A stretch of 64,000 bases of DNA from an uncultured virus (IMG/VR IMGVR_UViG_3300046003_003664). Its lineage: Duplodnaviria; Heunggongvirae; Uroviricota; Caudoviricetes. Positions 1 to 29,747 of the stretch are shown in pieces (within the stretch, counting starts at the first letter, position 1; every line of letters begins with the position of its first letter). Under the pieces are notes generated by a model. The model had not been told where the DNA came from. It was given only the letters and a program-made list of their open reading frames with translations, and made no database searches. Where the stretch lies: the IMG/VR virus record IMGVR_UViG_3300046003_003664. One strand, 5' to 3'. The translations under genes and the position numbers were made by a program.

Positions 1-34
1 GAAATCGTGTTTCCTTTTCATTCCGTATATTATT

Positions 35-63
35 AGTATAAACTGATTCTATACGAATGTCAA
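35..63 (-). promoter_or_regulatory. sigma70-type early promoter (class A, GANTC in spacer)
   Basis: TTGACA-17bp-TATACT on the minus strand with GAATCAG in the spacer. Confidence 0.8.
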
Positions 64-174
64 CAGAAAATGTTTGTCTGTCACTCTCCAGACTGCCACC
101 CATAAAATAATATTGCATCACAGTTTCAGGGTCACGATGCAAGGGTATCGTCTCTCTTTAAGAGACTCTAATAT

Positions 175-289
175 CAGGATCATTTATTTGCCGGTTGCCT
201 TTACCATTTGGCCACAAAGATCTTGTGTGATCTAAGGTAGGACTTGAACCTACAATCTACTGGTTGTTAAAATTGCTGTATTGATCCTT
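175..289 (-). ncRNA. Permuted tRNA-like (YrlA/Y-RNA-like) RNA, copy A
   Basis: GGATCA-ATACAGCAA...TGATCC closing stem; T-arm GTAGGTTCAAGTCCTAC precedes D-arm GGCCAAATGGTAAAGGC. Confidence 0.65.
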
Positions 290-294
290 AAACT

Positions 295-369
295 TGGAGC
301 GGACGATGAGATTCGAACTCACGACCTGATGCTTGGCAAGCATCTGCTCTACCACTGAGCTACGTCCGC
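295..369 (-). tRNA. tRNA-Gly(GCC)
   Basis: Cloverleaf GCGGACG...CGTCCGCTCCA; anticodon loop TTGCCAA. Confidence 0.95.
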
Positions 370-468
370 AATATAAAATACAATGGAATAATGAGTGAGG
401 TAGCGAACCATCATCTTGTTAATTTCCGTATCTAGACTTCTAAAACTCAGATACAACCATTGTAATCT

Positions 469-545
<77 letters not shown>

Positions 546-558
546 ATAAACTTTATAA

Positions 559-710
559 TTGAAAGAACGCTATAGGGTAATTAATCCTATTCGAGGACGC
601 TGTTTGCAACCAACGTTTGATCCTAACTTTTGTGTTACAGATTCGAACTGTCCCTGCCAGCAAAGGCCGTGCATCCATTTACACCTTACGCTACTTGTCT
701 GTTCCTTCAA
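559..710 (-). ncRNA. Structured ncRNA family 2 (tRNA-elbow-containing), copy 1
   Basis: TTGAAGGAAC/GTTCTTTCAA closing stem, D-arm-like and T-arm (GTTCGAATC) elements; paralog at 6261-6437. Confidence 0.55.
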
Positions 711-741
711 TAATAAAGTCTGTAATTTATTATGTTTATTT

Positions 742-764
742 TTCTAAATTGTCAAAGAGCGGTT
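742..764 (-). promoter_or_regulatory. rrn-type boxA antitermination element
   Basis: CCGCTCTTTGACAATTTAGAA just downstream of promoter 774-802; repeated at 4312, 6814, 7504 and 28275. Confidence 0.6.
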
Positions 765-798
765 ATTAAGTTTACCATATACTGATTCTGTGTGTTTG

Positions 799-1104
799 TC
801 AACCGAAAAGTTGTTCGGTAATCACGTTAATTTCCTTCGAAGATTGCTTACGAGCTTTACCTTCAAGAGAAGCATCATAGTCTTTGTAAGCAACTTCAAC
901 CTTATAACCAAGTTCATCACCTGATTGTTCACCGATAAACATCATTTCATAAAGACATTTGACGGTGACTTTCAGACTTTCTTTAGAACCATCATGAGAC
1001 ATTTCCATGATATTGGCGACCGATCTACGACCGTCTTCATCAGACTCAATCCAAAGTACACGGATTGCAGTATCGGAAGCTTTTTCGAAGATGTATTGGT
1101 TCAT
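799..1104 (-). CDS. hypothetical protein
   Basis: ORF with AAGGA RBS and its own promoter at 1130-1158. Confidence 0.65.
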   Translation of the reverse strand: MNQYIFEKASDTAIRVLWIESDEDGRRSVANIMEMSHDGSKESLKVTVKCLYEMMFIGEQSGDELGYKVEVAYKDYDASLEGKARKQSSKEINVITEQLFG

Positions 1105-1169
1105 GTTCGGTTCCTTTCCTTATATAATCAATATATACTGATTCTGTAAGGATGTCAACCATTATTTTT

Positions 1170-1390
1170 CTGGATCAACTTTTTGCGTAACCTGCTCTAC
1201 TACCTGAGCTACTCTCCCATCAAAGATACTGCACGCTAGTTTATACCCAATTGTCTCGCCATATAAGCCTATTAATATCTTATACAAGAAAGGTTGTCAT
1301 AAACTAACAGTATCCGTGGTGGGAGAGGAAGGATTTGAACCTCCGACACGGCCCATTTCAAGGATGCTAATTTGTTGCTGTAATGATCCA
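1170..1390 (-). ncRNA. Permuted tRNA-like (Y-RNA-like) RNA, copy B, with internal CCA
   Basis: GGATCA-TTACAGCAA stem, T-arm, CTCTCCC-A-CCA, about 98 nt insert, GGGAGAG, D-arm, AAAAAGTTGATCC. Confidence 0.7.
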
Positions 1391-1498
1391 TTTTGTATTT
1401 GTCAAGCCAGAGCGTCACCAGTGTCGTGGATAGAATGTCTATAGTCACCTATATAAACTCAATCCATGATACCTGGCTATCATCTGGCTGTCAGGAAT

Positions 1499-1571
1499 TG
1501 GAGCGGGTAGCCGGAATCGAACCGGTCTCCTGCAGATTGGAAATCTGATTGGTTGCCATAACCTTACCCGC
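1499..1571 (-). tRNA. tRNA-Gly(UCC)
   Basis: GCGGGTA acceptor, loop TTTCCAA, short D-arm. Confidence 0.85.
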
Positions 1572-1577
1572 ATTGAT

Positions 1578-1652
1578 TGGTCAGTGTGACAAGGATTGAA
1601 CTTGCGACTTCTAGTTTCCAAAACTAGCACTCTACCACTGAGCTACACACTG
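1578..1652 (-). tRNA. tRNA-Pro(UGG)
   Basis: Cloverleaf, loop TTTGGAA, C1:G72. Confidence 0.9.
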
Positions 1653-1761
1653 ATATTCGTACTCCGAGGGTCTGAATCTCGGGAGCCGAGGAAGAGAGGG
1701 ATAACCTTCAAAGCCAATACAGACAATAGGCTCGGGTCAGTGCGCTTTTCTTCCTAATAAT

Positions 1762-1845
1762 TGGTGCCCAGAGAGGGATTTGAACCCTCACGCAATTAAG
1801 CGCCACCTACTCAAGATGGTGTGTCTACCGTTTCACCACCTGGGC
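1762..1845 (-). tRNA. tRNA-Leu(GAG)
   Basis: Class II cloverleaf, loop TTGAGTA. Confidence 0.9.
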
Positions 1846-1847
1846 AT

Positions 1848-2093
1848 TTAAATTATGCGCGGCGATGGCCATAGACCACGCATACAAATAATGTAGTGCA
1901 GTCCGTCCATCGGTGCTTGTAGTTTGGGAAGAGCAAAATTGTGGCCGACGGTGCCACCATAAGTATTCCCAACTAAAGCATAAATTGCTTGTTCTTCATT
2001 TACATTTAAAAGTCTACCATCACATGGTAGATAACCTTCTGGTGCATAATTAAATGCTACAAGTTTAACAGTACCTAATAGTTCTTCGTCCAT
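1848..2093 (-). CDS. phage tail collar domain protein
   Basis: LGTVKLVAFNYAPEGYLPCDGRLL...YGG...FALP tail-collar signature. Confidence 0.8.
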   Translation of the reverse strand: MDEELLGTVKLVAFNYAPEGYLPCDGRLLNVNEEQAIYALVGNTYGGTVGHNFALPKLQAPMDGLHYIICMRGLWPSPRII

Positions 2094-2119
2094 ATTTTTT
2101 CCTTCATATCAAAGTATAA

Positions 2120-2194
2120 TGGTAGTCCGTAAAGGGATCAAACCTTTGACCTTCTCCGTGTAAAGGAGTTGCTCTATCGCTGAGCTAACGGACC
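2120..2194 (-). tRNA. tRNA-Val(UAC)
   Basis: Cloverleaf, loop TTTACAC. Confidence 0.9.
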
Positions 2195-2201
2195 GTTATT
2201 T

Positions 2202-2285
2202 TGGTGCGCCTGGAGGGACTTGAACCCCCACGCCCGAAGGCACTGCATTCTAAGTGCAGCGTGGCTGCCATTACACCACAAGCGC
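2202..2285 (-). tRNA. tRNA-Leu(UAG)
   Basis: Class II cloverleaf, loop CTTAGAA. Confidence 0.92.
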
Positions 2286-2293
2286 ATAAACTT

Positions 2294-2369
2294 TGGCTGC
2301 CCCTCGTGGACTCGAACCACGGTTTCCTGATTCAGAGTCAGGCGTCCTACCGGCATAGACGAAGGGGCA
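2294..2369 (-). tRNA. tRNA-Gln(CUG)
   Basis: U1:A72, loop CTCTGAA. Confidence 0.93.
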
Positions 2370-2508
2370 AAAATTTCAGCCGGAAATTCTTTAGTCAGGC
2401 GCCGGATCGCCTCGTTAATGGTGTCAATCAAGGAATTGAACCTTGTCATAGCGTGACATGACGCCTGTGATATCTGTGCTGTTAGCAAACCTGCATTGAC
2501 ATGTTTAT

Positions 2509-2584
2509 TGGTGGACCATGACGGTAACGATCCGTCTCTTCCGCATTGCAAGTGCGGTGTGCTACCCTCTATCACTAATGGCCC
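2509..2584 (-). tRNA. tRNA-Ala(UGC)
   Basis: G3:U70, loop CTTGCAA. Confidence 0.9.
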
Positions 2585-2942
2585 ATAAATTCTGCTGGTT
2601 CTCACGTTGTCGAACCGAATGCTGTCTAGAATTTCGACCCGTGCTGGATTTACAGCATCTAAGGTATCTAGATCAAACTCAAATTGGACAAGGAGCGGGA
2701 AGTTGAACCCACCAGCACGAACCGATATTACCAGTATCATTATCATGCATGCCTGACGCCACCTTTCTTGCAAACTCTGGTAAAGTCTGCGGTACTTGGA
2801 TCATCACCCCGTTGGTGCCTACGTTTGCCTCGACCAAATGGGAAGCGAGCATAGGACTTAGTTGATATAGACTGGGCTGGTTTGCCGACTTGACCTATCT
2901 CTAGGGTCACACTCATAAGGGGTGACTATATCCAGTCTATTT

Positions 2943-3018
2943 TGGTGGATCTTATCAGTCTCGAACTGATTACCACGGACTTCCGCCCAGTGCTTTACCC
3001 ATCTTAAGCTAAAGACCC
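2943..3018 (-). ncRNA. Anticodon-less tRNA-Ala-like RNA
   Basis: Acceptor GGGTCTT/AAGATCC-A-CCA (G3:U70), D and T arms intact, anticodon arm capped by a GGAA tetraloop. Confidence 0.7.
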
Positions 3019-3024
3019 AATGTT

Positions 3025-3101
3025 TGGTTGCGGGAGAAGGATTTGAACCTTCGACCTCTTGGTTATGAGCCAAGCGAGCTACCGGACTGCTCTATCCCGC
3101 A
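3025..3101 (-). tRNA. tRNA-Met(CAU), initiator-like
   Basis: TGCGGG...GAGCAGTCCGGTAGCTC body resembles fMet tRNA; loop CTCATAA. Confidence 0.88.
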
Positions 3102-3246
3102 AAAATCTATTTGTTACCTAGTCCTTTCGATTGACAGCCGCTAAACCAATCAATCTGGGTTCTGTCCGATTTTGACTCAAGTTGAAAGTTGCCATGGCAA
3201 CCGCTCTCTATTGTCCCAGTAACACGTCCACCCAAAGTCCATTGAT

Positions 3247-3320
3247 TGGCGCACCTGACGGGACTCGAACCCGCCTTCACGGTTAGACAGACCGCGGCCT
3301 TCCCTGACGGCAACAGGTGC
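3247..3320 (-). tRNA. tRNA-Asp(GUC)
   Basis: Loop CTGTCTA, G73. Confidence 0.88.
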
Positions 3321-3329
3321 ATTGTATTT

Positions 3330-3404
3330 TGGCTCCTCAGACAGGATTCGAACCTATATTGAACAGATTAACAATCTGGAGCCTTACCTATCGGCCACTG
3401 AGGA
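3330..3404 (-). tRNA. tRNA-Asn(GUU)
   Basis: TCCTCAG/CTGAGGA-G-CCA, loop TTGTTAA. Confidence 0.85.
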
Positions 3405-3903
3405 ACAATTCTTTTATATTTTCTTTATAAACCCATTCACCTTTTGCAATGTTAATTTTATAATGAGTTAGATAATATCTTTCTTCTTCTCTTGCATTTT
3501 CAACAACACGGTAATGTTCAACTTTATATCTTTTCATCGGATCATATGTTTGATAAGATCTTAAACGATTTACGAGATTTTTGGTCATACCAATTTTAAT
3601 AAAACCATCAAAAGCAGGATTACTAATTAAATAAACAATTCCACTTTTTGTTTTTGTCTTTGATTTATTAGTTTTTACTTCTTCTATTTCTTCTCTTTGT
3701 AAATTTAATTTCAACAAAGATAAACCAGCTAATTTTAAAGCATAATTTTTATTAGAATTTGTTTTTGTATCACCATTGCCAGAATATTTTGAATATAAAG
3801 ATACATAGTCTTCTTTCATACTATGGGTAATATCAAATATACCATTCGGTGGCAATGCATCTGTTTCAATCATCTCATAAAAAATAAAACTATCAAACTT
3901 CAC
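3388..3903 (-). CDS. GIY-YIG (T5orf172-like) putative homing endonuclease
   Basis: GIVYLI...FIKIGMT...RLRSYQT...GEW motif; AT-rich insert within the tRNA cluster. Confidence 0.75.
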   Translation of the reverse strand: MKFDSFIFYEMIETDALPPNGIFDITHSMKEDYVSLYSKYSGNGDTKTNSNKNYALKLAGLSLLKLNLQREEIEEVKTNKSKTKTKSGIVYLISNPAFDGFIKIGMTKNLVNRLRSYQTYDPMKRYKVEHYRVVENAREEERYYLTHYKINIAKGEWVYKENIKELFLSGR

Positions 3904-3920
3904 AATATACTTTCTATATT

Positions 3921-3995
3921 TGGCAGGGGCCGCGAGAGTCGAACTCGCTTCTCAAGGTTTTGGAGGCCCGCGGATTACCGGTTTCCCTGACCCCT
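3921..3995 (-). tRNA. tRNA-Trp(CCA)
   Basis: AGGGGTC acceptor, loop CTCCAAA; imperfect anticodon stem. Confidence 0.8.
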
Positions 3996-4006
3996 GCATT
4001 TAATTT

Positions 4007-4082
4007 TGGCTCCCAGTGACGGGCTCGAACCGCCGACCCAAGGATTAACAATCCTTTGCTCTACCAACTGAGCTAACTGGGA
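4007..4082 (-). tRNA. tRNA-Asn(GUU)
   Basis: Canonical cloverleaf, loop TTGTTAA. Confidence 0.95.
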
Positions 4083-4088
4083 ACATTA

Positions 4089-4213
4089 TCTCTGTTTTCA
4101 GCTAAGGGTCACCAAGGAATTGAACCTTGCGTTCACTTTGTCGGAAGCTGCCGAAATCGCCGACACGATTAGGGCACTCACGGACCATCATGACCCTCAT
4201 GTGAAAACAGAGA
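4089..4213 (-). ncRNA. Structured ncRNA family 3, copy 1
   Basis: TCTGTTTTCA-CA...GC-TGAAAACAGA closing stem and T-arm CAAGGTTCAATTCCTTG; paralog at 7283-7385. Confidence 0.55.
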
Positions 4214-4734
4214 GTATTCAATCTGGTCTTATCGGTTTGTCCGAGCCAGATAATCTCTGTTTTGTTTTTGTAAATCACGGTTTACAGTTTCATCAACTAA
4301 CGTGATCAGATTTCTAAATTGTCAAAGAGCAAGATTAACATTCATCAACAAGACACTCATCACCCAGATTAGCATAGTCAAAGTCTGGGATATATTCCAC
4401 TTCGATCCAACCTTTTTGGCGAAGCGAGAGCGCCTCATACCAATAGCAAGTAACTTTTTCCTTAGTAATTACATTTTGCATTACGTAGGTTTCCATATTA
4501 TTTCCTTTGGTTGGTTATAAGTTTAGTATAAACTGATTCTTACAGATTGTCAACCAATTTTCCGCGGATATTTTCAAGACCTTTATCTTTGATAACGGTC
4601 AACAGTTCCATGCAAGCATTGGATTTTTCAATCTCACCTGCAAGGAGAAAATCAGCAGCATTACGAGCAAGACGTTCAATCAGTTTGGTCATTGTCATGT
4701 TTCGGTTTCCTTTGTGTTACCTTATATATTTAAA

Positions 4735-4971
4735 CTATACCGATTCCATACGATTGTCAACCACTTTGTTGCGTCTTTGCTTCTTTTGTTTTTCAAGAAG
4801 TTTCTTGGCACGGATACGAGCCAAAGCATCTTCTTCGTCTTTTTGGAGATGCGCTGTTTTTGCAAACCTTGATACTTGACGGCGAAGTCGAGCAGCAATA
4901 GATCGTTTCCAGCGGGTTGCACGTGAAGGTTTTTCGAGTTTGATGTCGACATCTTCTTCTACAGTATCCAT
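4735..4971 (-). CDS. small basic hypothetical protein
   Basis: GGAG RBS upstream; 78 aa ORF. Confidence 0.5.
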   Translation of the reverse strand: MDTVEEDVDIKLEKPSRATRWKRSIAARLRRQVSRFAKTAHLQKDEEDALARIRAKKLLEKQKKQRRNKVVDNRMESV

Positions 4972-4997
4972 GGTATATTCTCCATTTTAAATTATGA

Positions 4998-5088
4998 TGG
5001 CAGATGGTGGAGGTATCGAACCCCTGACGGGTATCAGCCGTCACGCTAGTTTTCAAGACTAGTCGAAGCACCTGCTTCCGCACCATCC
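4998..5088 (-). tRNA. tRNA-Ser(UGA)
   Basis: Long variable arm, G73, loop CTTGAAA. Confidence 0.9.
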
Positions 5089-5094
5089 ATAATT

Positions 5095-5179
5095 TGGTAC
5101 CCCCTGCCGGACTCGAACCGGCACGCCATAACAGCTAGAGATTTTAAGTCTCTTGTGTCTACCATTCCACCAAGGAGGC
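5095..5179 (-). tRNA. tRNA-Leu(UAA)
   Basis: Class II cloverleaf, loop CTTAAAA. Confidence 0.93.
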
Positions 5180-5189
5180 ATTATTTAAT

Positions 5190-5317
5190 CAGGATCAACT
5201 TTTTGCTACGCGTTTTACTACTAAACTAACCCCTGTCAGTGTATGGTCAGGGGTGTAGGAATTGCACCTACGACTCGATCTCCGAATGATATGCATATTT
5301 GTTGCTGAAATGATCCT
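5190..5317 (-). ncRNA. Permuted tRNA-like (Y-RNA-like) RNA, copy C
   Basis: GGATCA-TTTCAGCAA stem; T-arm, ACCCCTG-A-CCA, short loop, CAGGGGT, D-arm, AAAAAGTTGATCC. Confidence 0.7.
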
Positions 5318-5323
5318 TTAATT

Positions 5324-5953
5324 TTATTTTTGTATTAGATAGTGTGTGTCATATGTAAATGCTACAACTTCATTATTTTTGGTATCTAGAATTGAAAACC
5401 CCAAATCCTTGAAGTATTTAAATAATTTGTCACGTTTAACTTGGTCACTTTTTATGTCAGATACTTGATGTGTTTCTAAGACAATTGTAGGATAATCTCT
5501 AGTAAGAATTTCTTGTCCATGGTAAAATATTTCATATTCACCACCTTCAATATCACATTTAATAAAATCAACTTTGATATCTTTACAAAATGTATCAAGT
5601 GTTATTGATTGTACTTGTATAGTATTGTTTACTGAATGTCCCCATTTCTTGAGTTTTGCCAAACCTTCCATAATAGTGTGACCACCATCATTTGCAGAAC
5701 AAACAAAAAGATCAATAACACCATCTGATGTTCCAATTACTTTTTGTTCTATTTGAACATTTTGTTCAGTAACTTTAGCTTTAATCTTTGTTACATTGTC
5801 TGGGTGTGGTTCAAATGAATAAACTTTCCCAAATTTTGATGCAAGTAATTTTGAGTAAATTCCATGATTTGCTCCTATATCTAGTGCAATTCCATTTTCA
5901 TTTACTTCTAAATTTGCTATTACGGTTGCAACCCAATCTTCATTTCTAGACAT
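5324..5953 (-). CDS. FkbM family methyltransferase
   Basis: LDIGANHG, FEP, IKCDIEGGE motifs. Confidence 0.85.
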   Translation of the reverse strand: MSRNEDWVATVIANLEVNENGIALDIGANHGIYSKLLASKFGKVYSFEPHPDNVTKIKAKVTEQNVQIEQKVIGTSDGVIDLFVCSANDGGHTIMEGLAKLKKWGHSVNNTIQVQSITLDTFCKDIKVDFIKCDIEGGEYEIFYHGQEILTRDYPTIVLETHQVSDIKSDQVKRDKLFKYFKDLGFSILDTKNNEVVAFTYDTHYLIQK

Positions 5954-6103
5954 AAATTGCCCTCTTAAAATACTATAATTAACACCATCTTACTTCTCTG
6001 ACCTTGGCTCGGGCTGCCTTGGATCAGTTCATCGCAGTATTCCGCTAAGAACCTATCAACCTCATCCCTCTTTTACTCTTGGTGATAGGCGATGGTGTGT
6101 ATT

Positions 6104-6178
6104 TGGAGCGGGTAGCCGGCATCGAACCGGTCCTCTCTAGCTTGGAAGGCTAGGGCACATCCTCTATACCATACCCGC
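6104..6178 (-). tRNA. tRNA-Gly(UCC)
   Basis: Loop CTTCCAA, U73. Confidence 0.93.
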
Positions 6179-6186
6179 AATGTTTT

Positions 6187-6252
6187 TGGCTCTGCTCAGG
6201 CTATGTTGAGCGACTTAGTTGCTTCTTCGATCAGGCCGAAGCAATACCGATA
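6187..6252 (-). ncRNA. Structured ncRNA family 4, copy 1
   Basis: TATCGGTA-hairpin-CTAAGTC-hairpin-AGAGCCA; paralog at 6530-6594. Confidence 0.5.
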
Positions 6253-6260
6253 AGTTTATT

Positions 6261-6437
6261 AGACCTCATAATTGAAGAAATATTGTTGGTTAGCTACTCC
6301 AAACTAGGGAACTGTTTCGAACCAGTGATCCCAGCTTTTCATGGTAAGGATTCGAACCTTGTCTCCCGCTTCACGCGGGCGTGCTATCCGGGTTGCACCA
6401 TTCCACTACTTTACCTATTTCCTCAATGATGAGGTCT
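6261..6437 (-). ncRNA. Structured ncRNA family 2, copy 2
   Basis: AGACCTCAT/ATGAGGTCT outer stem; D-arm, short stem and T-arm GGTTCGAATCC; similar to 559-710. Confidence 0.6.
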
Positions 6438-6444
6438 AAAAATT

Positions 6445-6521
6445 TGGTGGTCCCTGTAGGATTCGAACCTACGACATTCCGCTTAGAAGGCGGATGCTCT
6501 ATCCAACTGAGCTAAGGAACC
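6445..6521 (-). tRNA. tRNA-Arg(UCU)
   Basis: Loop CTTCTAA, A20 in the D-loop. Confidence 0.95.
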
Positions 6522-6529
6522 AATGTGTT

Positions 6530-6594
6530 TGGCTCTACCCATCCGCTCTTGGGCGATTTAACTGGTGGTGATTTGATTAACACCAGTACCGATA
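6530..6594 (-). ncRNA. Structured ncRNA family 4, copy 2
   Basis: Same linkers as 6187-6252 with covarying stems. Confidence 0.5.
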
Positions 6595-6598
6595 TGTT

Positions 6599-6675
6599 TG
6601 GTAGGGGATGACGGACTCGAACCGCCAACCGTCTTCTTATGAGGAAGCTGAACTAACCAATTGTTCTAATCCCCC
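6599..6675 (-). tRNA. tRNA-CAU, probably Ile2 (lysidine)
   Basis: Loop CTCATAA; GGG-start acceptor; phage encodes TilS and the cluster leader has an ATA codon (Ile2 identity is inferred). Confidence 0.8.
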
Positions 6676-6679
6676 AAAC

Positions 6680-6797
6680 TCTGTTTTGAGCGATATACAT
6701 TGCCACGATGTTCTCTGCTGTGTTTCAAGCAACACTGTCATGTCTACCCGCTTACATCTTTCGACTGGTGCACGCCATGTATATCTGTCAAAACAGA
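6680..6797 (-). ncRNA. Structured RNA with family-3-type closing stem
   Basis: TCTGTTTTGA-CA-GATATACAT...ATGTATATC-GC-TCAAAACAGA. Confidence 0.45.
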
Positions 6798-7104
6798 ATT
6801 TAATCTGTTTTAGTTCTAAATTGTCAAAGAGCGGTTTGTCATTCAGGGTTTACAGTTTCATCAACTAACCTGATTTATAAGTTTATATTATACTGATTCT
6901 GTGGTTTTGTCAACCGTTTTATGCAAAACCACCAGATTTCAAGCGAGAATAAACAGTCCCATCTTCAACACGAATGAAGAAACCATCATCTTCAATGATC
7001 TTCTGACCTTTGTAGAAGCTGCCGACGAGATTTTGTTTCATTTGGTTTCCTTTACCTTATATAATCAATATATACTGATTCTATAGTAATGTCAACCATT
7101 ATTT

Positions 7105-7194
7105 TGGCGGAGTCGGGGGAGCACGATTCCCATGGTATTTCTACCACGTTCTGCTTTCCAAGCAGACCTGCCAACCTTGACAGCTCTCAACTCC
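7105..7194 (-). tRNA. tRNA-Ser(GGA)
   Basis: Long variable arm, loop TTGGAAA, G73. Confidence 0.85.
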
Positions 7195-7201
7195 ATAATT
7201 T

Positions 7202-7277
<76 letters not shown>

Positions 7278-7282
7278 ATTAT

Positions 7283-7385
7283 TTCTGTTTTCAGCTGCTC
7301 TTTTTGGATTCGAACCAGTCCAACCAACTAAATGGGCGAGGTTAACCGTACTACATTACGGACTAAAGAGCATGTGAAAACAGAA
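7283..7385 (-). ncRNA. Structured ncRNA family 3, copy 2
   Basis: TCTGTTTTCACATG...GTCCGT...GGTTCGAATCC...AGCTGAAAACAGA. Confidence 0.55.
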
Positions 7386-7537
7386 TTTTCAGTATTCCGA
7401 AGAATACCTCTAACAAAGGAACATTCAGACACATTCGTCAGTTTGTTCTTCTGTTTTTCAGATCTATTATCGAGTTTCCTCTAAGACCACAAGGAGTAAT
7501 TAGTTTCAAAGAGCGGTTTGATTTCCTTTATAAGTCA

Positions 7538-7566
7538 GTTATAAACCGATTCTCTTATATTGTCAA
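7538..7566 (-). promoter_or_regulatory. sigma70-type promoter heading tRNA cluster 1
   Basis: TTGACA-17-TATAAC with GAATCGG in the spacer. Confidence 0.75.
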
Positions 7567-7573
7567 CCAAAAT

Positions 7574-7607
7574 AAAAAGGCCCAGGGTTTTATTCCTGGG
7601 CCTTTTT
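7574..7607 (-). terminator. Intrinsic terminator / attenuator of tRNA cluster 1
   Basis: AAAAAGGCCCAGG-AATAAAAC-CCTGGGCCTTTTT hairpin with U-tract. Confidence 0.85.
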
Positions 7608-7635
7608 GAGATAGAATTTTTATCGAATTTCTATG

Positions 7636-7734
7636 TCAAAACAGCCCACTTCCTCTGCCTATGAGCACTTGGCGACCAGGATTATTATCCTGTGTCCATT
7701 GCGCTGATAATGAGGAGACGTGTAGGGAAGTCAT
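7636..7734 (-). CDS. Putative attenuator leader peptide 1 (MTSLHVSSLSAQWTQDNNPGRQVLIGRGSGLF)
   Basis: 32-codon ORF after a TATAAATA late promoter; last codons complementary to the terminator 5' arm; codons match cluster-1 tRNAs. Confidence 0.7.
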   Translation of the reverse strand: MTSLHVSSLSAQWTQDNNPGRQVLIGRGSGLF

Positions 7735-7763
7735 GATACTCTCGGTTGGTTAAATTGTAATTT

Positions 7764-7771
7764 TATTTATA
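7764..7771 (-). promoter_or_regulatory. T4 late promoter TATAAATA
   Basis: Exact gp55 consensus upstream of leader 1. Confidence 0.65.
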
Positions 7772-7800
7772 ACACGCTTTCGTTGACTTCGTAAAAAAGA

Positions 7801-8187
7801 TCAAACTTTTTCAACTTTTTCAAAATAAAATTTCTTTAGAAGCCATTTTACTTTCATTGGCACCACGAACCATTCTTCATACTTTGCCTGTTTCCAAGGC
7901 ACGGTAGAAACAATCCAAGACGGACCATCGAAGTACAGAATAGTATGCATATCTGCAAGTCCTTTTACTTGTTGTTTTAGTGTATTCCAACGAATACTTT
8001 TTGTAGTCCACAACAGTCTGGCATATTCTTGAACTGAAGGGTGCATGAACTCGTAGTAAAAATCTTTTGCTTTCTGATTGTCGGCAGTGATATATTCATC
8101 GCCGATATCAATTGGTTCTGATTTGAACAATTGCCTTTCTACTCGCATTTGAGTAGGACCTACGATAAGTTTATATTTTGGTTTCAT
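7801..8187 (-). CDS. hypothetical protein
   Basis: ORF coupled to the upstream gene (ATGA overlap). Confidence 0.65.
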   Translation of the reverse strand: MKPKYKLIVGPTQMRVERQLFKSEPIDIGDEYITADNQKAKDFYYEFMHPSVQEYARLLWTTKSIRWNTLKQQVKGLADMHTILYFDGPSWIVSTVPWKQAKYEEWFVVPMKVKWLLKKFYFEKVEKV

Positions 8188-10260: not shown

Positions 10261-11157
10261 TTACCTACCTTCATACTTTTCAAGGACGGACTTTAGTTCA
10301 GCAACAAGCCGTTCTACCGGAACATCGCGTTTGACAGCTTGATCCAGAGAACCATAGTGCTGTTCTAGACAAGTCATAAGAAGATCCTTGATAGCATCTT
10401 CGTCCGGCACATGCCGAAGGGTTGACTTGGTATAAAGTTCTTCAAGATGTTTCTCCTTAGCATCAAACCAGCTCCGGAGTTTCTCTTCACTCCAGTCACC
10501 ACGACGAACTGCTTTCAGGACTTCAGCATTTCGTTCAATGTCAAGATCATGCTCCATCAAGATCTGTTCACCCTCAAGAGCAAGACGAATAACATGATAA
10601 GCAAACTTAAGATCCATGCCGTGTTTTTCGATGTCAGCTTGGCGCTTAGGATTGGAACTATTTGACTTCGTGCCGATCTTGTGCAATTGAGCATAAGCAT
10701 ATCCGCGGAACTTGTGATACGAATTCTTTGTCAAGAATAGTTTGCGGTTATCACGGACAATCTGAGCAACAGTAGAGCAATACAAAACACACCGTTGTGG
10801 AGTAAACAGAATGTCAACCATATTCGGATTATTTTCCATTGCAAGTTGAAAAAACTTCACGATTGAATAGATACTGAAGTCGTATTCTTGACGAGATTCA
10901 TTATCCATGATGTGATGTTCCTGCCATAATTCAAATCGTTTGTGTTGTAAACCAAAACCAGGAATCTCACCACGAAGGTGCGGGAAGATGTCATCTTTTG
11001 GTGGCATACAAAAACCAACAACATCCATATCAGAAGTGTCTGAACTTACAGCATAGCTGACAGAACCGGTGATCACTTCATAGTGAATGTTTTGAGGTAG
11101 CCACCTTGGCGGACTGATAAGTCCCTTCTGTTTCATTAGTTGTACACGTGATGCCAT
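10261..11157 (-). CDS. Pol-beta superfamily nucleotidyltransferase (RlaP/Nuc-transf-like)
   Basis: GSVSYAVSSDTSDMDVVG motif, NPN, YAYAQL, K.AYH.IRL. Confidence 0.8.
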   Translation of the reverse strand: MASRVQLMKQKGLISPPRWLPQNIHYEVITGSVSYAVSSDTSDMDVVGFCMPPKDDIFPHLRGEIPGFGLQHKRFELWQEHHIMDNESRQEYDFSIYSIVKFFQLAMENNPNMVDILFTPQRCVLYCSTVAQIVRDNRKLFLTKNSYHKFRGYAYAQLHKIGTKSNSSNPKRQADIEKHGMDLKFAYHVIRLALEGEQILMEHDLDIERNAEVLKAVRRGDWSEEKLRSWFDAKEKHLEELYTKSTLRHVPDEDAIKDLLMTCLEQHYGSLDQAVKRDVPVERLVAELKSVLEKYEGR

Positions 11158-28200: not shown

Positions 28201-28274
28201 TGGTGTTCCTACGAGGTAACGATCCTCGGTCTCTCGCTTATCAGGCGAATGCTCTACCATTGAGCTATAGGAAC
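28201..28274 (-). tRNA. tRNA-Ile(GAU)
   Basis: Loop CTGATAA. Confidence 0.9.
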
Positions 28275-28294
28275 CTAAATTGTCAAAGAGCAAT

Positions 28295-28328
28295 AAAAAA
28301 CCCTCCGAGGATTTTTCCAGGAGGGTTC
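28295..28328 (-). terminator. Intrinsic terminator / attenuator of tRNA cluster 2
   Basis: GAACCCTCC...GGAGGGTT-TTTT directly upstream of boxA and tRNA-Ile. Confidence 0.85.
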
Positions 28329-28357
28329 TAAAACTATATACTTATTTGCATAAGATA

Positions 28358-28417
28358 TCAGTCTCGGGAACCCTCCCAAGTCATATATTCCTCAAATTTG
28401 CAAATAAAGTAAGTCAT
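28358..28417 (-). CDS. Putative attenuator leader peptide 2 (MTYFICKFEEYMTWEGSRD)
   Basis: GAGG RBS; codons 3-12 use only cluster-2 amino acids; GGAGGGTTC complementary to the terminator 5' arm. Confidence 0.75.
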   Translation of the reverse strand: MTYFICKFEEYMTWEGSRD

Positions 28418-28443
28418 TTTAGTCCTCTGTTTTGTTTTAATCT

Positions 28444-28493
28444 GGATGAGCTTGGTTTTGTATATCAAACAATTTTAGTTGCTGTATTCATCC
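28444..28493 (-). ncRNA. CAGCAA bulged-stem element (no tRNA module)
   Basis: GGATGA-ATACAGCAA...TCATCC, covarying with GGATCA/TGATCC of the permuted RNAs. Confidence 0.55.
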
Positions 28494-28504
28494 ATTATTT
28501 GGTT

Positions 28505-28542
28505 TATTTATATAATATATACTGATTCTGTGTGTTTGTCAA
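28505..28542 (-). promoter_or_regulatory. Overlapping sigma70 (class A) and TATAAATA promoters for tRNA cluster 2
   Basis: TTGACA-17-TATATT with GAATCAG; TATAAATA at 28505-28512. Confidence 0.7.
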
Positions 28543-29747
28543 CAATTATTTTTAACTTTTATTCATAATTTTTAGAAAGGCGGCGAATAGCCTTGGCACT
28601 CATACGTTTTGCATATTTGTTACCGGGGCGACCCCAGCAACCAGCTGCTTTTCGTCCAATTTTTTTATAGAAGTTCATCAGTCAGTCTCCGTTTCGGTAT
28701 ATTTAAATATTATACTGATTCTGTGTGTTTGTCAACAATTAGTTTGTTACCATGGCAGAAAATTTGGAGGGTTCCGTAAAACTAACCATATACAGATCAA
28801 TGTTGTGACAATTCCAGTGATAAAACCAAGAATAAACATCAAGCGGCCTCCACCCAATCACGTTGGGATTGAATAATCATTTCCATCTCAGACCGTTCAG
28901 CAACCTCTTCATAATTCTCGGCAATATCAATCATTGCTTCAAGAATCTGTTGACGGTTATAACCAAACGTATCTGCACGCCGAGCCAAATTTCGCATATT
29001 TTTTGCAAACTCATAGGCGGCTTGAATATCCATAGCATGATTCCTTTTCATTTCACATAGACATATTAATATAATCAGAATCGTTTGTCAACTAATTTAA
29101 TAGTGATTATGATAAGTAATTGTAGAAACAGAGTAAACATGCCCATCAGGTGTATGAGCAATTTTAACTGTCGCTGTATTCCGCCCTTCATTCAGTTTTT
29201 TTACATACTCCGAACTGCCATACTCATTAAATACTACTCGTTTATATCCTCGGGCCAAAATCATCGTGTGAATTTTGTCATAATGCTTATTCTTATCACC
29301 ACGAAATAGAGTCCTAGAAACAGAAGCACTCCCACCATTTTCATAATAGTGAAGACCGAGAGTCGTAAGTTCTGTATGTAACGGAACAAGTTTCAGCATG
29401 ATTAGACCTTTTCACCAAGTTTGTTTATATAGGCCTGCATAAACTGACTCCATTCAACTAAAGGTTCAATTTCACGGAACATTCGATCCATGGCCCAGTA
29501 AGGCCATTCTTGTTCGATTGTAATCTCTACAGCTTTACTGATGCAAGCCTTTGCAAGGTTCCATTCTTGTTGAGAACCTGCATGATGATAACTTGCATCA
29601 TTCAGACACTTTTTGAATTCTTGAAAACCTTCGAGAGGGCATTCAGTTTTTGAGTTCCACGGAGAAACTGCTTTCATTTGGTTTCCTTTACCTTATAGAA
29701 TCAGTATATACTATAAGGGAGGAAATGTCAACAGTTATTTTCAATAA

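What the first reader, a model, noticed from the sequence alone, without database searches (positions are those of the whole stretch)
7574..7771. Second attenuator: a 32-codon leader matching tRNA cluster 1 down to isoacceptor level
Seen: late promoter TATAAATA (7771-7764), then ORF 7734-7636 (MTSLHVSSLSAQWTQDNNPGRQVLIGRGSGLF), then the terminator at 7607-7574. The ORF end GGGCTGTTTTGA can pair with TCAAAAAGGCCC, the terminator 5' arm. Its codons mirror cluster-1 anticodons: TCC/Ser-GGA, TCA/Ser-UGA, CTA/Leu-UAG, TTA/Leu-UAA, CTC/Leu-GAG, ACA/Thr-UGU, CAG/Gln-CUG, TGG/Trp, GAT/Asp, AAT/Asn, CCT/Pro, GGC/Gly-GCC, GGA/Gly-UCC, AGA/Arg-UCU, GCG/Ala, GTG/Val and ATA/putative Ile2. It has no Tyr, Cys, Lys, Glu or internal Met codons, and Phe appears only as the last codon, so it complements leader 2. 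Inference: same sensor design. It predicts that His, Arg(ACG), Gln(UUG) and Ser(GCU) tRNAs lie further along the cluster, left of position 1. Caveat: sigma70 promoters also lie downstream of this terminator, so attenuation would mainly govern late or read-through supply.
Basis: partly seen in the sequence, partly recalled or inferred. Interest (0 to 1): 0.92.

Follow-up and report, generated by a model that had tools for sequence, protein, structure and literature searches.

The report
Ribosome-sensing switch before phage tRNA genes
An uncultured T4-like lake phage places a tiny reading frame and a stop/go RNA switch in front of its large tRNA gene block, so it probably makes more tRNA late in infection when ribosomes read that frame slowly, a control I found described for amino-acid genes but not for tRNA genes.

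Summary
The late-promoter motif (7771-7764), the 32-codon ORF (7734-7636), the strong terminator (7607-7574) and the pairing of the ORF end with the terminator's 5' arm are all present on the minus strand.

Comparison supports a real switch:
- All 12 homologous copies keep an open frame of 26-33 codons. These come from IMG/VR and metagenome contigs and are mostly very different in sequence.
- The frame ends 24-48 nt before a terminator.
- The ORF end stays complementary to the terminator's 5' side, with compensatory changes. Three shared columns covary with both partners.
- Substitutions show no third-position bias, so the frame is kept but the peptide is not.

Codon matching is real but looser than claimed.
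- 28 of 31 codons are readable by tRNAs of the downstream cluster (P about 0.01).
- Only 1 of 31 is readable by the second cluster (P 0.002-0.005).
- The leader of 25 tRNA species of its cluster (P 0.0003-0.014). This breadth recurs in two further split-cluster relatives but not in a merged-cluster relative.
- Of the four predicted tRNAs, two were found, one is ambiguous and Arg-ACG is absent.

An early promoter lies after the terminator in every copy read. The switch can therefore gate only late or read-through transcription. Nothing here is experimental.

This scan has noted similar elements on other DNA (33 AI notes). My six full-text searches listed no paper on it.

The parts
7764..7771 (-). 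T4-type late-promoter motif TATAAATA, 30 nt upstream of the leader ATG
   Evidence: The window holds 11 copies against 5.3 expected, most of them 22-66 nt upstream of ORF starts in the same orientation. The motif is invariant in 7 of 7 aligned close homologues and also present in G008. Promoter activity is inferred.
7739..7743 (-). Purine-rich Shine-Dalgarno-like stretch 4 nt before the ATG (weak)
   Evidence: Read. The AGAG 4-mer is present in 5 of 11 homologues, and 4 of 11 have none of the 8 most enriched upstream 4-mers of the phage's long ORFs.
7636..7734 (-). Leader ORF: 32 codons plus TGA
   Evidence: The frame is open in 12 of 12 homologues while both other frames carry at least 1 stop in each. 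No PHROG family matches.
7677..7692 (-). Mid-ORF hairpin (6 bp, 4-nt loop), a candidate RNA polymerase pause hairpin
   Evidence: 83.3% of cells paired against 19-47% when slid, 2 pairs with compensatory change, absent in L035. The pause role is inference.
7636..7647 (-). Region 2: the last three sense codons plus the stop codon, forming the 5' strand of the antiterminator
   Evidence: A ribosome at the stop codon would cover this stretch (inference from ribosome footprint size).
7611..7634 (-). Inner hairpin between regions 2 and 3, compatible with both states
7598..7609 (-). Region 3: the strand shared by the antiterminator (with region 2) and the terminator (with its 3' arm)
   Evidence: Alignment columns 192, 194 and 195 vary and stay paired with both partners in 7 of 7 sequences.
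7574..7607 (-). Intrinsic terminator: 13-bp stem, 8-nt loop, T-run
   Evidence: Energy -22.0 kcal/mol. In the alignment 91.2% of cells are paired and 4 pairs show compensatory change.
7538..7566 (-). Early (sigma70-type) promoter-like site: TTGACA, 17 nt, then a TATAAC-type -10 box. It bypasses the switch.
   Evidence: Read. The same class, with a conserved GAATC spacer motif, follows the terminator in G004, G005, G008, L035, L061, L064, L068, L072 and L077. It was not listed, because that scan requires T as the last base of the -10 hexamer.
7340..7515 (-). Conserved 5' element between the early promoter and the first tRNA, of unknown role
   Evidence: 10 sequences. I used it as the search pattern that found the homologues.
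7202..7277 (-). tRNA-Thr(UGU), first gene of tRNA cluster 1
7105..7194 (-). tRNA-Ser(GGA), detected only at a lowered threshold
   Evidence: L061 has a Ser-GGA at the syntenic place.
1..7277 (-). Window part of tRNA cluster 1. It continues about 15 kb in all beyond position 1.
28298..28512 (-). Sister module ('leader 2') before tRNA cluster 2. It comprises TATAAATA (28512-28505), a 19-codon ORF (28417-28358) and a terminator (28328-28298), followed by tRNA-Ile at 28274.
   Evidence: A homologue lies in G004 at L019:14986-14930(-).

Best explanation
This is a ribosome-mediated (leader-ORF) transcription attenuator placed at the head of the phage's large tRNA gene cluster.

Proposed mechanism.
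- Transcripts start at the late promoter motif 30 nt upstream, or read through from the upstream gene. They enter a 32-codon ORF.
- The last 12 nt of the ORF (region 2, which includes the stop codon) can pair with the 5' side of the terminator (region 3). This extends a pre-formed inner hairpin and removes the G-C core of the terminator stem.
- If a ribosome runs through quickly and sits at the stop codon, it covers region 2. The terminator then forms and transcription stops before the tRNA genes.
- If the ribosome is slow or stalled earlier in the frame, region 2 is free and captures region 3. RNA polymerase then runs on into the tRNA cluster.
- The first roughly 25 codons call on most tRNA species encoded downstream. 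They avoid the amino acids whose tRNAs sit in the other cluster. The switch would therefore raise cluster-1 transcription when one of its own tRNAs is limiting.
- A host-type early promoter follows the terminator. The switch can therefore govern only late or read-through supply.

What is shown and what is inferred.
- Shown by computation: the elements, their conservation, covariation of both alternative helices, maintenance of the frame without peptide conservation, and the codon statistics.
- Inferred: translation of the ORF, promoter use, the ribosome's effect on folding, and the direction of regulation.
For: (1) Anatomy at the stated coordinates. The terminator folds at -22.0 kcal/mol and the competing hairpin at -19.5.

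(2) Homologues. I found them through a conserved element downstream and a neighbouring gene. A leader ORF of 26-33 codons ends 24-48 nt before a terminator in 12 of 12 sequence-distinct copies.

(3) ORF-end complementarity to the terminator 5' arm. Duplex energies are -14.0 to -23.6 kcal/mol. The empirical P against flanking 26-nt windows is at most 0.0165 in 11 of 11 and at most 0.005 in 9 of 11, although the paired sequences differ between lineages.

(4) Covariation in 7 alignable copies.
- Antiterminator: 20 pairs, 89.9% of cells paired (24-53% when slid), 7 pairs changed on both sides, 0 of 500 shuffles reach the covariation score.
- Terminator: 13 pairs, 91.2% paired, 4 pairs compensatory.
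- Three columns of the shared strand covary with both partners.

(5) Frame maintenance. Frame 0 is open in 12 of 12 while the other frames carry stops. The chance of an open frame per sequence under shuffling is 0.08-0.30. Window versus L061 differs at 8/6/8 sites by codon position, with 5 synonymous against 9 non-synonymous codon changes.

(6) Codon content.
- 28/31 codons are readable by cluster-1 tRNAs (P 0.008-0.012).
- 1/31 is readable by cluster 2 (P 0.002-0.005).
- 21 of 25 cluster-1 tRNA species are called (long-ORF windows mean 14.4, P 0.00026; strict assignment 0 of 11,518).
- G004: 22/26 species (0 of 6,260 windows). G008: 19-20 of 22-23 (P 0-0.009).

(7) Sister module before cluster 2. 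Its residues 3-12 are all amino acids of that cluster's 8 tRNAs. A run of 10 compares with a maximum of 8 in 12,116 gene windows. It is conserved in G004, where Tyr is missing from the leader and tRNA-Tyr lies in the other cluster.

(8) Merged-cluster relatives G005 and L072 have Glu, Tyr, Phe and Cys or Lys codons in their leaders.

(9) Rarity in the window. The two modules own the first- and third-strongest of 70 terminator-like hairpins. Their upstream complementarity (-21.9 and -23.9) is matched by only 1 of the 21 other hairpins of -12 or better.

(10) A tested precedent for the logic. In the whiB7 uORF attenuator, efficient uORF translation gives termination, and the uORF's amino-acid content decides which starvation is sensed (passages of PMC10274678).
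Against: - There is no expression, Term-seq or ribosome data. The RNA-library contigs found cannot show transcription.
- Translation signals are weak. AGAG occurs in 5 of 11 leaders, no enriched SD 4-mer in 4 of 11, and G004 starts with GTG.
- An early promoter sits between the terminator and the tRNAs in every copy read. The tRNAs do not depend on read-through, and the terminator could serve as an insulator.
- No conserved anti-antiterminator (1:2) pairing was found. With no ribosome at all the default would be read-through.
- There are no tandem runs of regulatory codons as in classical attenuators.
- Codon matching fails in G005: 22/30 codons, P 0.91, and 15/24 species, P 0.54. Its leader holds Asn, Ala and Phe codons with no such tRNA detected.
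- Lys codons are 2 of 327 across 11 leaders, even where a Lys tRNA lies downstream.
- Phe does not track tRNA-Phe in G004's leader 2. It has three Phe codons, while tRNA-Phe lies in the other cluster.
- The homologues are related, so the tests are not independent. The breadth statistic is one of several that I computed.
- Some tRNA identities rest on lowered thresholds.
Confidence: 0.65

Rival explanations
1. A translation-independent RNA switch or insulator. The terminator simply stops late or read-through transcription before the early tRNA promoter. The alternative hairpin responds to something other than the ribosome, such as a phage or host protein, a tRNA or temperature, or it only stabilises the 3' end of the short transcript. 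On this reading the ORF is incidental.
For: - An early promoter follows the terminator in all copies read.
- SD-like signals are weak.
- No conserved 1:2 pairing was found.
- The leader region as a whole is strongly structured, with z = -6.75.
Against: - The frame is open in 12 of 12 divergent copies while both other frames carry stops.
- The stop codon always lies in or within a few nt of region 2.
- Codon breadth and partition statistics exceed composition-preserving shuffles.
- There is no T-box or other Rfam cis-regulatory family at E up to 0.1.
Confidence: 0.15
2. An ordinary small late gene (a 32-residue protein) with its own terminator. The pairing of its 3' end with the terminator flank is a by-product.
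For: - A late-promoter motif sits at a gene-like distance.
- The frame is conserved.
- The first five residues are shared by five close homologues.
Against: - There is no third-position bias: 8/6/8 differences by codon position, with 5 synonymous against 9 non-synonymous changes.
- The peptides of the more distant copies are not visibly alike.
- No PHROG family matches.
- The rival does not explain the three-way covariation of regions 2, 3 and 4.
- It does not explain the fixed position before tRNA arrays in 10 of 10 copies that have downstream sequence.
Confidence: 0.07
3. The terminated leader transcript of roughly 185 nt (estimated from the coordinates) is itself the product. It would be a late small RNA acting in trans, as attenuator-derived sRNAs do in some bacteria. 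Control of the tRNAs would be secondary or absent.
For: - It has a dedicated promoter motif and a strong terminator.
- It is highly structured.
- The listing and abstract of PMC6614838 show that an attenuator RNA can act in trans.
Against: - I looked for no target.
- The sequence outside the paired regions is poorly conserved.
- This reading is compatible with, rather than opposed to, the attenuator reading.
Confidence: 0.08

Closest known systems
Class I leader-peptide transcription attenuators of amino-acid operons (trp, his, leu, thr, ilv, pheA) and of pheST
   Same: - A short leader ORF.
- An intrinsic terminator.
- An antiterminator that overlaps the ORF's 3' end and shares a strand with the terminator.
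- Leader codons that relate to what the downstream genes supply.
- The multivalent thr and ilv leaders also sense several amino acids (recalled, not from a call).
   Different: - The regulated genes are tRNA genes, not enzymes.
- There are no tandem runs of one codon. Instead the leader uses 27 distinct codons calling 21 of 25 tRNA species.
- No conserved 1:2 hairpin was found.
- A promoter lies between the attenuator and the genes.
- It is phage-borne with a late-promoter motif.
- No Rfam leader family matches.
whiB7/wblC uORF attenuator of Actinobacteria
   Same: - Two-state logic. Efficient uORF translation gives a terminator, and slow translation gives an antiterminator and read-through.
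- The uORF holds many different amino acids, and its composition decides which shortages are sensed.
- Knock-down of tRNAs and tRNA synthetases activates it.
(All from passages of PMC10274678.)
   Different: - It regulates a transcription factor, not tRNA genes.
- It belongs to a different host group.
- Its uORF is alanine-rich, whereas here no single amino acid dominates.
- There is no sequence relation. I did not test one beyond Rfam.
T-box riboswitches
   Same: They couple a terminator/antiterminator choice to the tRNA charging state and serve translation supply genes (recalled).
   Different: T-boxes bind uncharged tRNA directly and need no ORF. No T-box match was found at E up to 0.1 in window 1-30000.
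Anabaena trn operon (26 tRNA genes) under the repressor TrcR
   Same: [quoted passage not shown]
   Different: Control there is by a protein repressor at the promoter, not by a leader ORF and terminator switch.
Earlier AI notes of this scan on other phage genomes
   Same: A short ORF plus a terminator/antiterminator before phage tRNA clusters, including a phage with one such module before each of two clusters (e1-5359011, e1-5830176, e1-6021908, e1-2978539).
   Different: The notes concern other DNA. No look-alike stretch of this sequence is on record. They are unchecked AI notes, not independent evidence.

Membership tests
Leader-peptide (ribosome-mediated) transcription attenuator | A short ORF with a start codon upstream of the regulated genes, kept open in relatives | tested here: met
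   The ORF is at 7734-7636. The frame is open in 12 of 12 homologues while the other frames carry stops.
Leader-peptide (ribosome-mediated) transcription attenuator | An intrinsic terminator between the leader ORF and the regulated genes | tested here: met
   A terminator is present in all 11 analysed homologues, at -12.8 to -22.2 kcal/mol.
Leader-peptide (ribosome-mediated) transcription attenuator | An antiterminator that is mutually exclusive with the terminator and involves the 3' end of the ORF | tested here: met
   There are 7 compensatory pairs, and the shared columns covary with both partners.
Leader-peptide (ribosome-mediated) transcription attenuator | Regulatory codons cognate to what the operon supplies | tested here: inconclusive
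   There are no tandem runs. Matching is 28/31 (P about 0.01). Breadth is 21/25 species (P 0.0003-0.014) and is replicated in G004 and G008 but not in G005.
Leader-peptide (ribosome-mediated) transcription attenuator | An anti-antiterminator (1:2) or pause hairpin that synchronises the ribosome and the polymerase | tested here: inconclusive
   The mid-ORF hairpin has moderate support. No conserved pairing partner for region 2 was found upstream.
Leader-peptide (ribosome-mediated) transcription attenuator | The regulated genes lie directly behind the terminator with no promoter of their own | tested here: not met
   An early promoter-like site at 7566-7538 lies between the terminator and tRNA-Thr, and the same holds in the homologues. 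The feature is met for the sister module before cluster 2, where tRNA-Ile starts 23 nt after the terminator hairpin.
Leader-peptide (ribosome-mediated) transcription attenuator | Termination depends on translation of the leader | not testable with these tools
   This needs reporter, Term-seq or ribosome-profiling data. Public RNA runs gave only contigs.
Rfam leader families (His, Leu, Thr, Trp and similar leaders) and T-box | A match to the curated covariance model | tested here: not met
   (window 1-30000, E up to 0.1) lists 27 matches. Of these, 26 are tRNA-type and one is a weak chance hit on the plus strand opposite a tRNA gene.
T4-type late promoter | The TATAAATA motif at about -10, upstream of late genes | tested here: inconclusive
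   The motif is present, is enriched in the window (11 against 5.3 expected) and mostly precedes ORF starts. It is invariant in 7 of 7 close homologues. Its use by a gp55-type sigma factor was not tested.

The most novel reading that the evidence does not exclude
The phage runs demand-driven tRNA synthesis. Two leader-ORF attenuators have reciprocal codon sets, one before each tRNA cluster. Each would measure, through ribosome speed, the supply of the very tRNAs encoded behind it, and would open late transcription of that cluster only when one of them runs short. Such a shortage could arise when host tRNAs are degraded, cleaved by defence nucleases or outpaced by late protein synthesis. This would be a case of tRNA genes feedback-regulated by a sensor that reads their own products, and a multivalent sensor covering about 20 tRNA species in 31 codons.
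Probability: 0.45. Interest if true: 0.9.

Novelty: new variant of a known kind. Interest (0 to 1): 0.8.

Why it matters
The accounts I know say that phages carry tRNAs to fit their codon usage or to replace tRNAs lost to host shut-off and defence nucleases (recalled background). How tRNA output is matched to need is, as far as I know, not known.

A leader-ORF attenuator in front of tRNA genes would give a simple answer. The ribosome itself would report which tRNAs are scarce. This extends a textbook mechanism, attenuation of amino-acid operons, to a new class of regulated genes.

The two-module layout with reciprocal codon sets offers a natural experiment. Swapping codons between the leaders should swap which shortages open which cluster.

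The element is short. It should be directly testable in reporter constructs or in coupled in-vitro systems without cultivating the phage.

Six full-text searches listed no paper describing this control for tRNA genes (and their listings). Subscription journals are largely outside that library.

Tried and rejected
- **Whole genome:** none is held for the window. I used the identical IMG/VR contigs instead.
- **GenBank phages:** megablast found only tRNA-Thr matches. tblastn with the upstream 128-aa protein found nothing. blastn with the leader region found nothing. No cultured relative is available.
- **Metagenome pattern scan:** it returned 48 loci. I scanned the upstream regions of all 48 for terminators and printed 14 of them. 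Eleven of the 48 carry the module (L059, L060, L061, L064, L068, L069, L070, L072, L076, L077, L080), and some of these are duplicates of each other or of IMG/VR contigs. The five others printed (L042, L046, L054, L067, L081) look unrelated. I did not inspect the remaining loci further.
- **Distant relative G007** (neighbour gene 57% identical): my scan of its tRNA regions found only units with weak hairpins, -10.7 to -12.8. No module was recognised there.
- **RNA evidence:** the run search found lake-water DNA runs and two RNA-labelled runs with a small share of words. Laying them showed the tRNA-Thr part and one 210-nt low-depth contig of a relative across 7714-7923. Contigs cannot show transcript ends, so this gives no verdict.
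- **A conserved 1:2 anti-antiterminator:** RNAalifold gives only a 4-bp helix. Single-sequence folds pair region 2 with different upstream segments in different homologues. I do not claim it.
- **The odd tRNA-like gene at 3018-2946:** it scores 34.7 bits in Rfam. ARAGORN at a low threshold calls it Phe-GAA with a poor anticodon stem. I left it out of the tRNA sets.
- **Arg-ACG:** not found in the 15-kb cluster.
- **A script that was to locate the homologous leaders by typed peptide strings:** I then located the ORFs by rule from coordinates. For that reason the homologue peptides are not written out in this report; they are printed.
- **Protein tools:** I did not use protein database searches, structure prediction or complex prediction. 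No protein question was open.
Full report
**What is there**

The window belongs to an uncultured T4-like phage.
- It encodes topoisomerase II subunits (PHROGs). The large subunit is at most 48.5% identical to those of Vibrio phages of the nt-1 group.
- Public runs that hold the stretch are lake-water metagenomes.
- Two IMG/VR contigs are 100% identical to the window over the finding. They extend it to the left.

On the minus strand the finding's elements lie exactly as described:
- TATAAATA at 7771-7764.
- A purine-rich stretch at 7743-7739.
- ATG at 7734, then 32 codons and TGA at 7638-7636.
- A 13-bp terminator at 7607-7574 with a T-run.

The terminator hairpin folds at -22.0 kcal/mol. The last 12 nt of the ORF, an inner hairpin and the 12 nt at 7609-7598 form a competing 55-nt hairpin of -19.5 kcal/mol.

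After the terminator come:
- an early promoter-like site (TTGACA at 7566-7561, 17 nt, then a -10-like hexamer at 7543-7538; read);
- a conserved element of about 170 nt;
- tRNA-Thr at 7277.

**The tRNA clusters**

ARAGORN finds 19 tRNA genes at 7277-295 and 8 at 28274-27183.
- Rfam adds two genes in cluster 1. One is tRNA-Trp(CCA). The other, at 3018-2946, is irregular.
- A tRNA-Ser(GGA) at 7194-7105 appears only at a lowered ARAGORN threshold. It sits where relative L061 has a normally scored Ser-GGA.
- Left of the window the cluster continues for about 8 kb. It holds Gln-UUG, His-GUG, Leu-CAA, Thr-GGU, a CUA-anticodon tRNA, Thr-CGU, Val-GAC and Arg-UCG, plus three irregular tRNA-like genes.

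A Ser-GCU-like gene with an 8-nt anticodon loop is ambiguous. Arg-ACG is not there. For a phage with about 39 Rfam tRNA hits in G002 this prediction had a high chance of partial success whatever the mechanism.

**Relatives**

No GenBank phage resembles the region. I found divergent relatives in two ways:
- through a neighbouring nucleotidyltransferase gene (G004, G005, G008 and others, 55-75% identical);
- through a degenerate pattern taken from the conserved element downstream of the early promoter. This gave 5 loci in IMG/VR and 48 in metagenomes, of which 11 carry the module.

A rule-based search looked for a terminator, then an ORF of 15-45 codons ending within 70 nt upstream. It found a leader ORF in every homologue (G004 needed relaxed terminator rules). 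That makes 12 sequence-distinct copies of 26-33 codons.

Exact TATAAATA precedes 8 of the 12. In all copies that I read, an early promoter of the same class and the conserved element follow the terminator. In all 10 copies with enough downstream sequence a tRNA array follows. This last point is partly built in by the way I found them.

**Is the switch real?**

- For 11 homologues, the duplex between the last 24 nt of the ORF and the terminator's 5' arm plus 10-nt flank is -14.0 to -23.6 kcal/mol.
- Against all 26-nt windows in the 3 kb on either side, the empirical P is at most 0.0165 in 11 of 11 and at most 0.005 in 9 of 11.
- Against dinucleotide shuffles it is weaker for the window itself (P 0.064) and for G008 (P 0.117).
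- The paired sequences differ between lineages. In several copies the match is a perfect 10-12 bp.

On an alignment of the 7 alignable copies:
- The antiterminator has 20 pairs, with 89.9% of cells paired (24-53% when the partner is slid). Seven pairs changed on both sides, and 0 of 500 shuffles reach its covariation score.
- The terminator has 13 pairs, 91.2% paired, and 4 compensatory pairs.
- Columns 192, 194 and 195 of the shared strand change and remain paired with both partners in all 7 sequences. This is what a pair of mutually exclusive, functional helices predicts.

RNAalifold shows that the lower part of the antiterminator can coexist with the core terminator. The competition is therefore for the five G-C-rich bases at the bottom of the terminator stem.

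In the whole window these two modules own the strongest and third-strongest of 70 terminator-like hairpins. Their upstream complementarity is matched by 1 of the other 21 hairpins of -12 or better.

**Is the ORF read?**

This is not shown directly.

In favour:
- The frame is open in 12 of 12 copies, while each other frame has at least one stop in every copy.
- The chance of an open frame under composition-preserving shuffling is 0.08-0.30 per copy. With about eight sequence-distinct lineages the joint chance is of the order of 1e-6 (my arithmetic).
- The stop codon always lies in or within a few nt of region 2.
- The peptide is not conserved. Window versus L061 differs at 8/6/8 sites by codon position, with 5 synonymous and 9 non-synonymous codon changes.

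Against:
- SD-like signals are weak.
- G004 starts with GTG.

**Codons and tRNAs**

I used standard wobble rules: G34 reads C/U, C34 reads G, and U34 reads A/G, plus U in family boxes. One of the two CAU tRNAs was taken as Ile2.

For the window leader:
- 28 of 31 codons are readable by cluster-1 tRNAs. The mean in 31-codon windows of long ORFs is 20.4 (P 0.008). Against 333 short ORFs P is 0.012, and against nucleotide shuffles P is 0.010.
- Only 1 of 31 is readable by cluster 2 (P 0.002-0.005).
- The unmatched codons are CGC, AGT and TTT. The last two lie in the final four codons, next to or inside region 2. A stalled ribosome there would cover region 2 anyway.
- The leader of the 25 tRNA species of cluster 1. 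The gene-window mean is 14.4 and the maximum 21 (P 0.00026). With one tRNA per codon, 20 species are called against a maximum of 19 in 11,518 windows. Against short ORFs P is 0.005-0.014, and against shuffles P is 0.002-0.014.

In relatives:
- G004: 22 of 26 species (0 of 6,260 windows; shuffle P 0.0013).
- G008: 19-20 of 22-23 species (P 0-0.009). Its background windows come from overlapping loci of one contig.
- G005, whose tRNAs form one merged cluster: no enrichment (15 of 24 species, P 0.54; 22 of 30 codons, P 0.91).

Other composition features:
- ATA makes up 15 of 20 Ile codons in the 11 leaders, against a background share of 12-45%.
- Lys codons are 2 of 327, against about 8.5% in the background. 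They are scarce even in merged-cluster leaders, so not all of the composition is explained by tRNA placement.

**The sister module**

Before cluster 2 (Ile, Tyr, Phe, Glu, Lys, Lys, Met, Cys) lies the same design:
- TATAAATA at 28512-28505;
- a 19-codon ORF at 28417-28358;
- a terminator at 28328-28298 with ORF-end complementarity of -23.9 kcal/mol;
- tRNA-Ile 23 nt after the hairpin.

Residues 3-12 of that ORF are all from the seven amino acids of cluster 2, and all seven occur. A run of 10 compares with a maximum of 8 in 12,116 gene windows and 7 in 488 short ORFs.

G004 has a homologous module before its small cluster of Met, Ile, Lys, Cys and Glu. It of 5 species (P 0.005).
- tRNA-Tyr lies in G004's large cluster. 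Tyr is absent from its leader 2 and present in its leader 1.
- tRNA-Phe also lies in the large cluster, yet leader 2 keeps three Phe codons.
- So one of the two relocations is tracked.

**How it most likely works**

The design fits the two-state model tested for the whiB7 uORF. There, efficient translation leads to the terminator and slow translation leads to the antiterminator. The uORF's amino-acid content decides what is sensed (passages of PMC10274678).

Here, a ribosome at the stop codon covers region 2 and the lower helix, so the terminator forms. A ribosome held up in codons 2 to about 25 leaves region 2 free to capture region 3.

Because an early promoter follows the terminator, the switch can govern only transcripts from the late motif or from upstream genes. 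For a T4-type phage that turns host-type promoters off late in infection (established knowledge for T4; not tested here), this would make late tRNA supply conditional on need.

All steps from 'ribosome' onward are inference.

**Comparison and novelty**

- It works like a class I leader-peptide attenuator and like the whiB7 uORF.
- It fails one membership feature, because there is a promoter between the attenuator and the genes. It lacks tandem regulatory codons and a conserved 1:2 hairpin.
- It matches no Rfam leader or T-box model.
- Full-text searches listed no description of this control for tRNA genes. I saw listings and abstract starts only, except for passages of PMC10274678.
- This scan has 33 earlier AI notes of similar modules before tRNA clusters in other genomes, but none on look-alike sequence. 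They agree with my reading but are not independent evidence.

I rate it a new variant of a known kind.

Noticed in passing
window 28298-28512 (-); L019:14986-14930 (-): A sister attenuator lies before tRNA cluster 2. Its 19-codon leader has residues 3-12 that are all amino acids of the 8 tRNAs behind it. No promoter lies between its terminator and tRNA-Ile. A homologue lies in G004.
   Followed up: partly
L005:7592-7667 (-) (left of the window); L021:4545-4618; L072 downstream; L018:11751-11828: A tRNA with anticodon CUA (amber-reading; ARAGORN labels it 'Pyl') sits inside the tRNA clusters of this phage and several relatives. Long ORFs in the window are intact under code 11, so the genome is not recoded as a whole. 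Several relatives' leaders end in TAG.
   Followed up: no
L001:19873-19975; L021:2813-2931; L028:2214-2346, 2441-2546, 3955-4081: These tRNA-like genes of 103-133 nt carry an insertion of 28-50 nt in or near the anticodon loop. ARAGORN's identities for them are unstable.
   Followed up: partly
L001:19086-19167: A tRNA-like gene (27.3 bits in Rfam, below the cut-off) is drawn by ARAGORN with an 8-nt anticodon loop. It may be an irregular Ser-GCU.
   Followed up: partly
window 7340-7515 (-); also 28280-28296 (-): A conserved element of about 170 nt lies between the early promoter and the first tRNA in all 10 aligned relatives. Its opening motif of about 16 nt recurs just before tRNA-Ile of cluster 2. 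Its role is unknown (processing signal, middle-promoter box or small RNA).
   Followed up: partly
window 7538-7566, 28515-28545, 28705-28735 (-): The phage's early promoters share a conserved GAATC-containing spacer motif between the TTGACA box and the -10 box, which suggests a phage-specific promoter class.
   Followed up: no
window 5324-5953 (-), 10261-11157 (-): A methyltransferase-family gene lies inside the tRNA cluster and a nucleotidyltransferase-family gene lies 2.5 kb upstream (PHROGs). They are possible tRNA modification or repair enzymes.
   Followed up: no
L009:12297-12621; L010:4929-5253: Two relatives carry a tmRNA gene downstream of the nucleotidyltransferase gene.
   Followed up: no
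leader ORFs of 11 homologues (coordinates): ATA makes up 15 of 20 Ile codons in the leaders (background share 12-45%). At least one ATA occurs in 10 of 11 leaders. It may be a key sensing codon for a phage tRNA-Ile2.
   Followed up: partly
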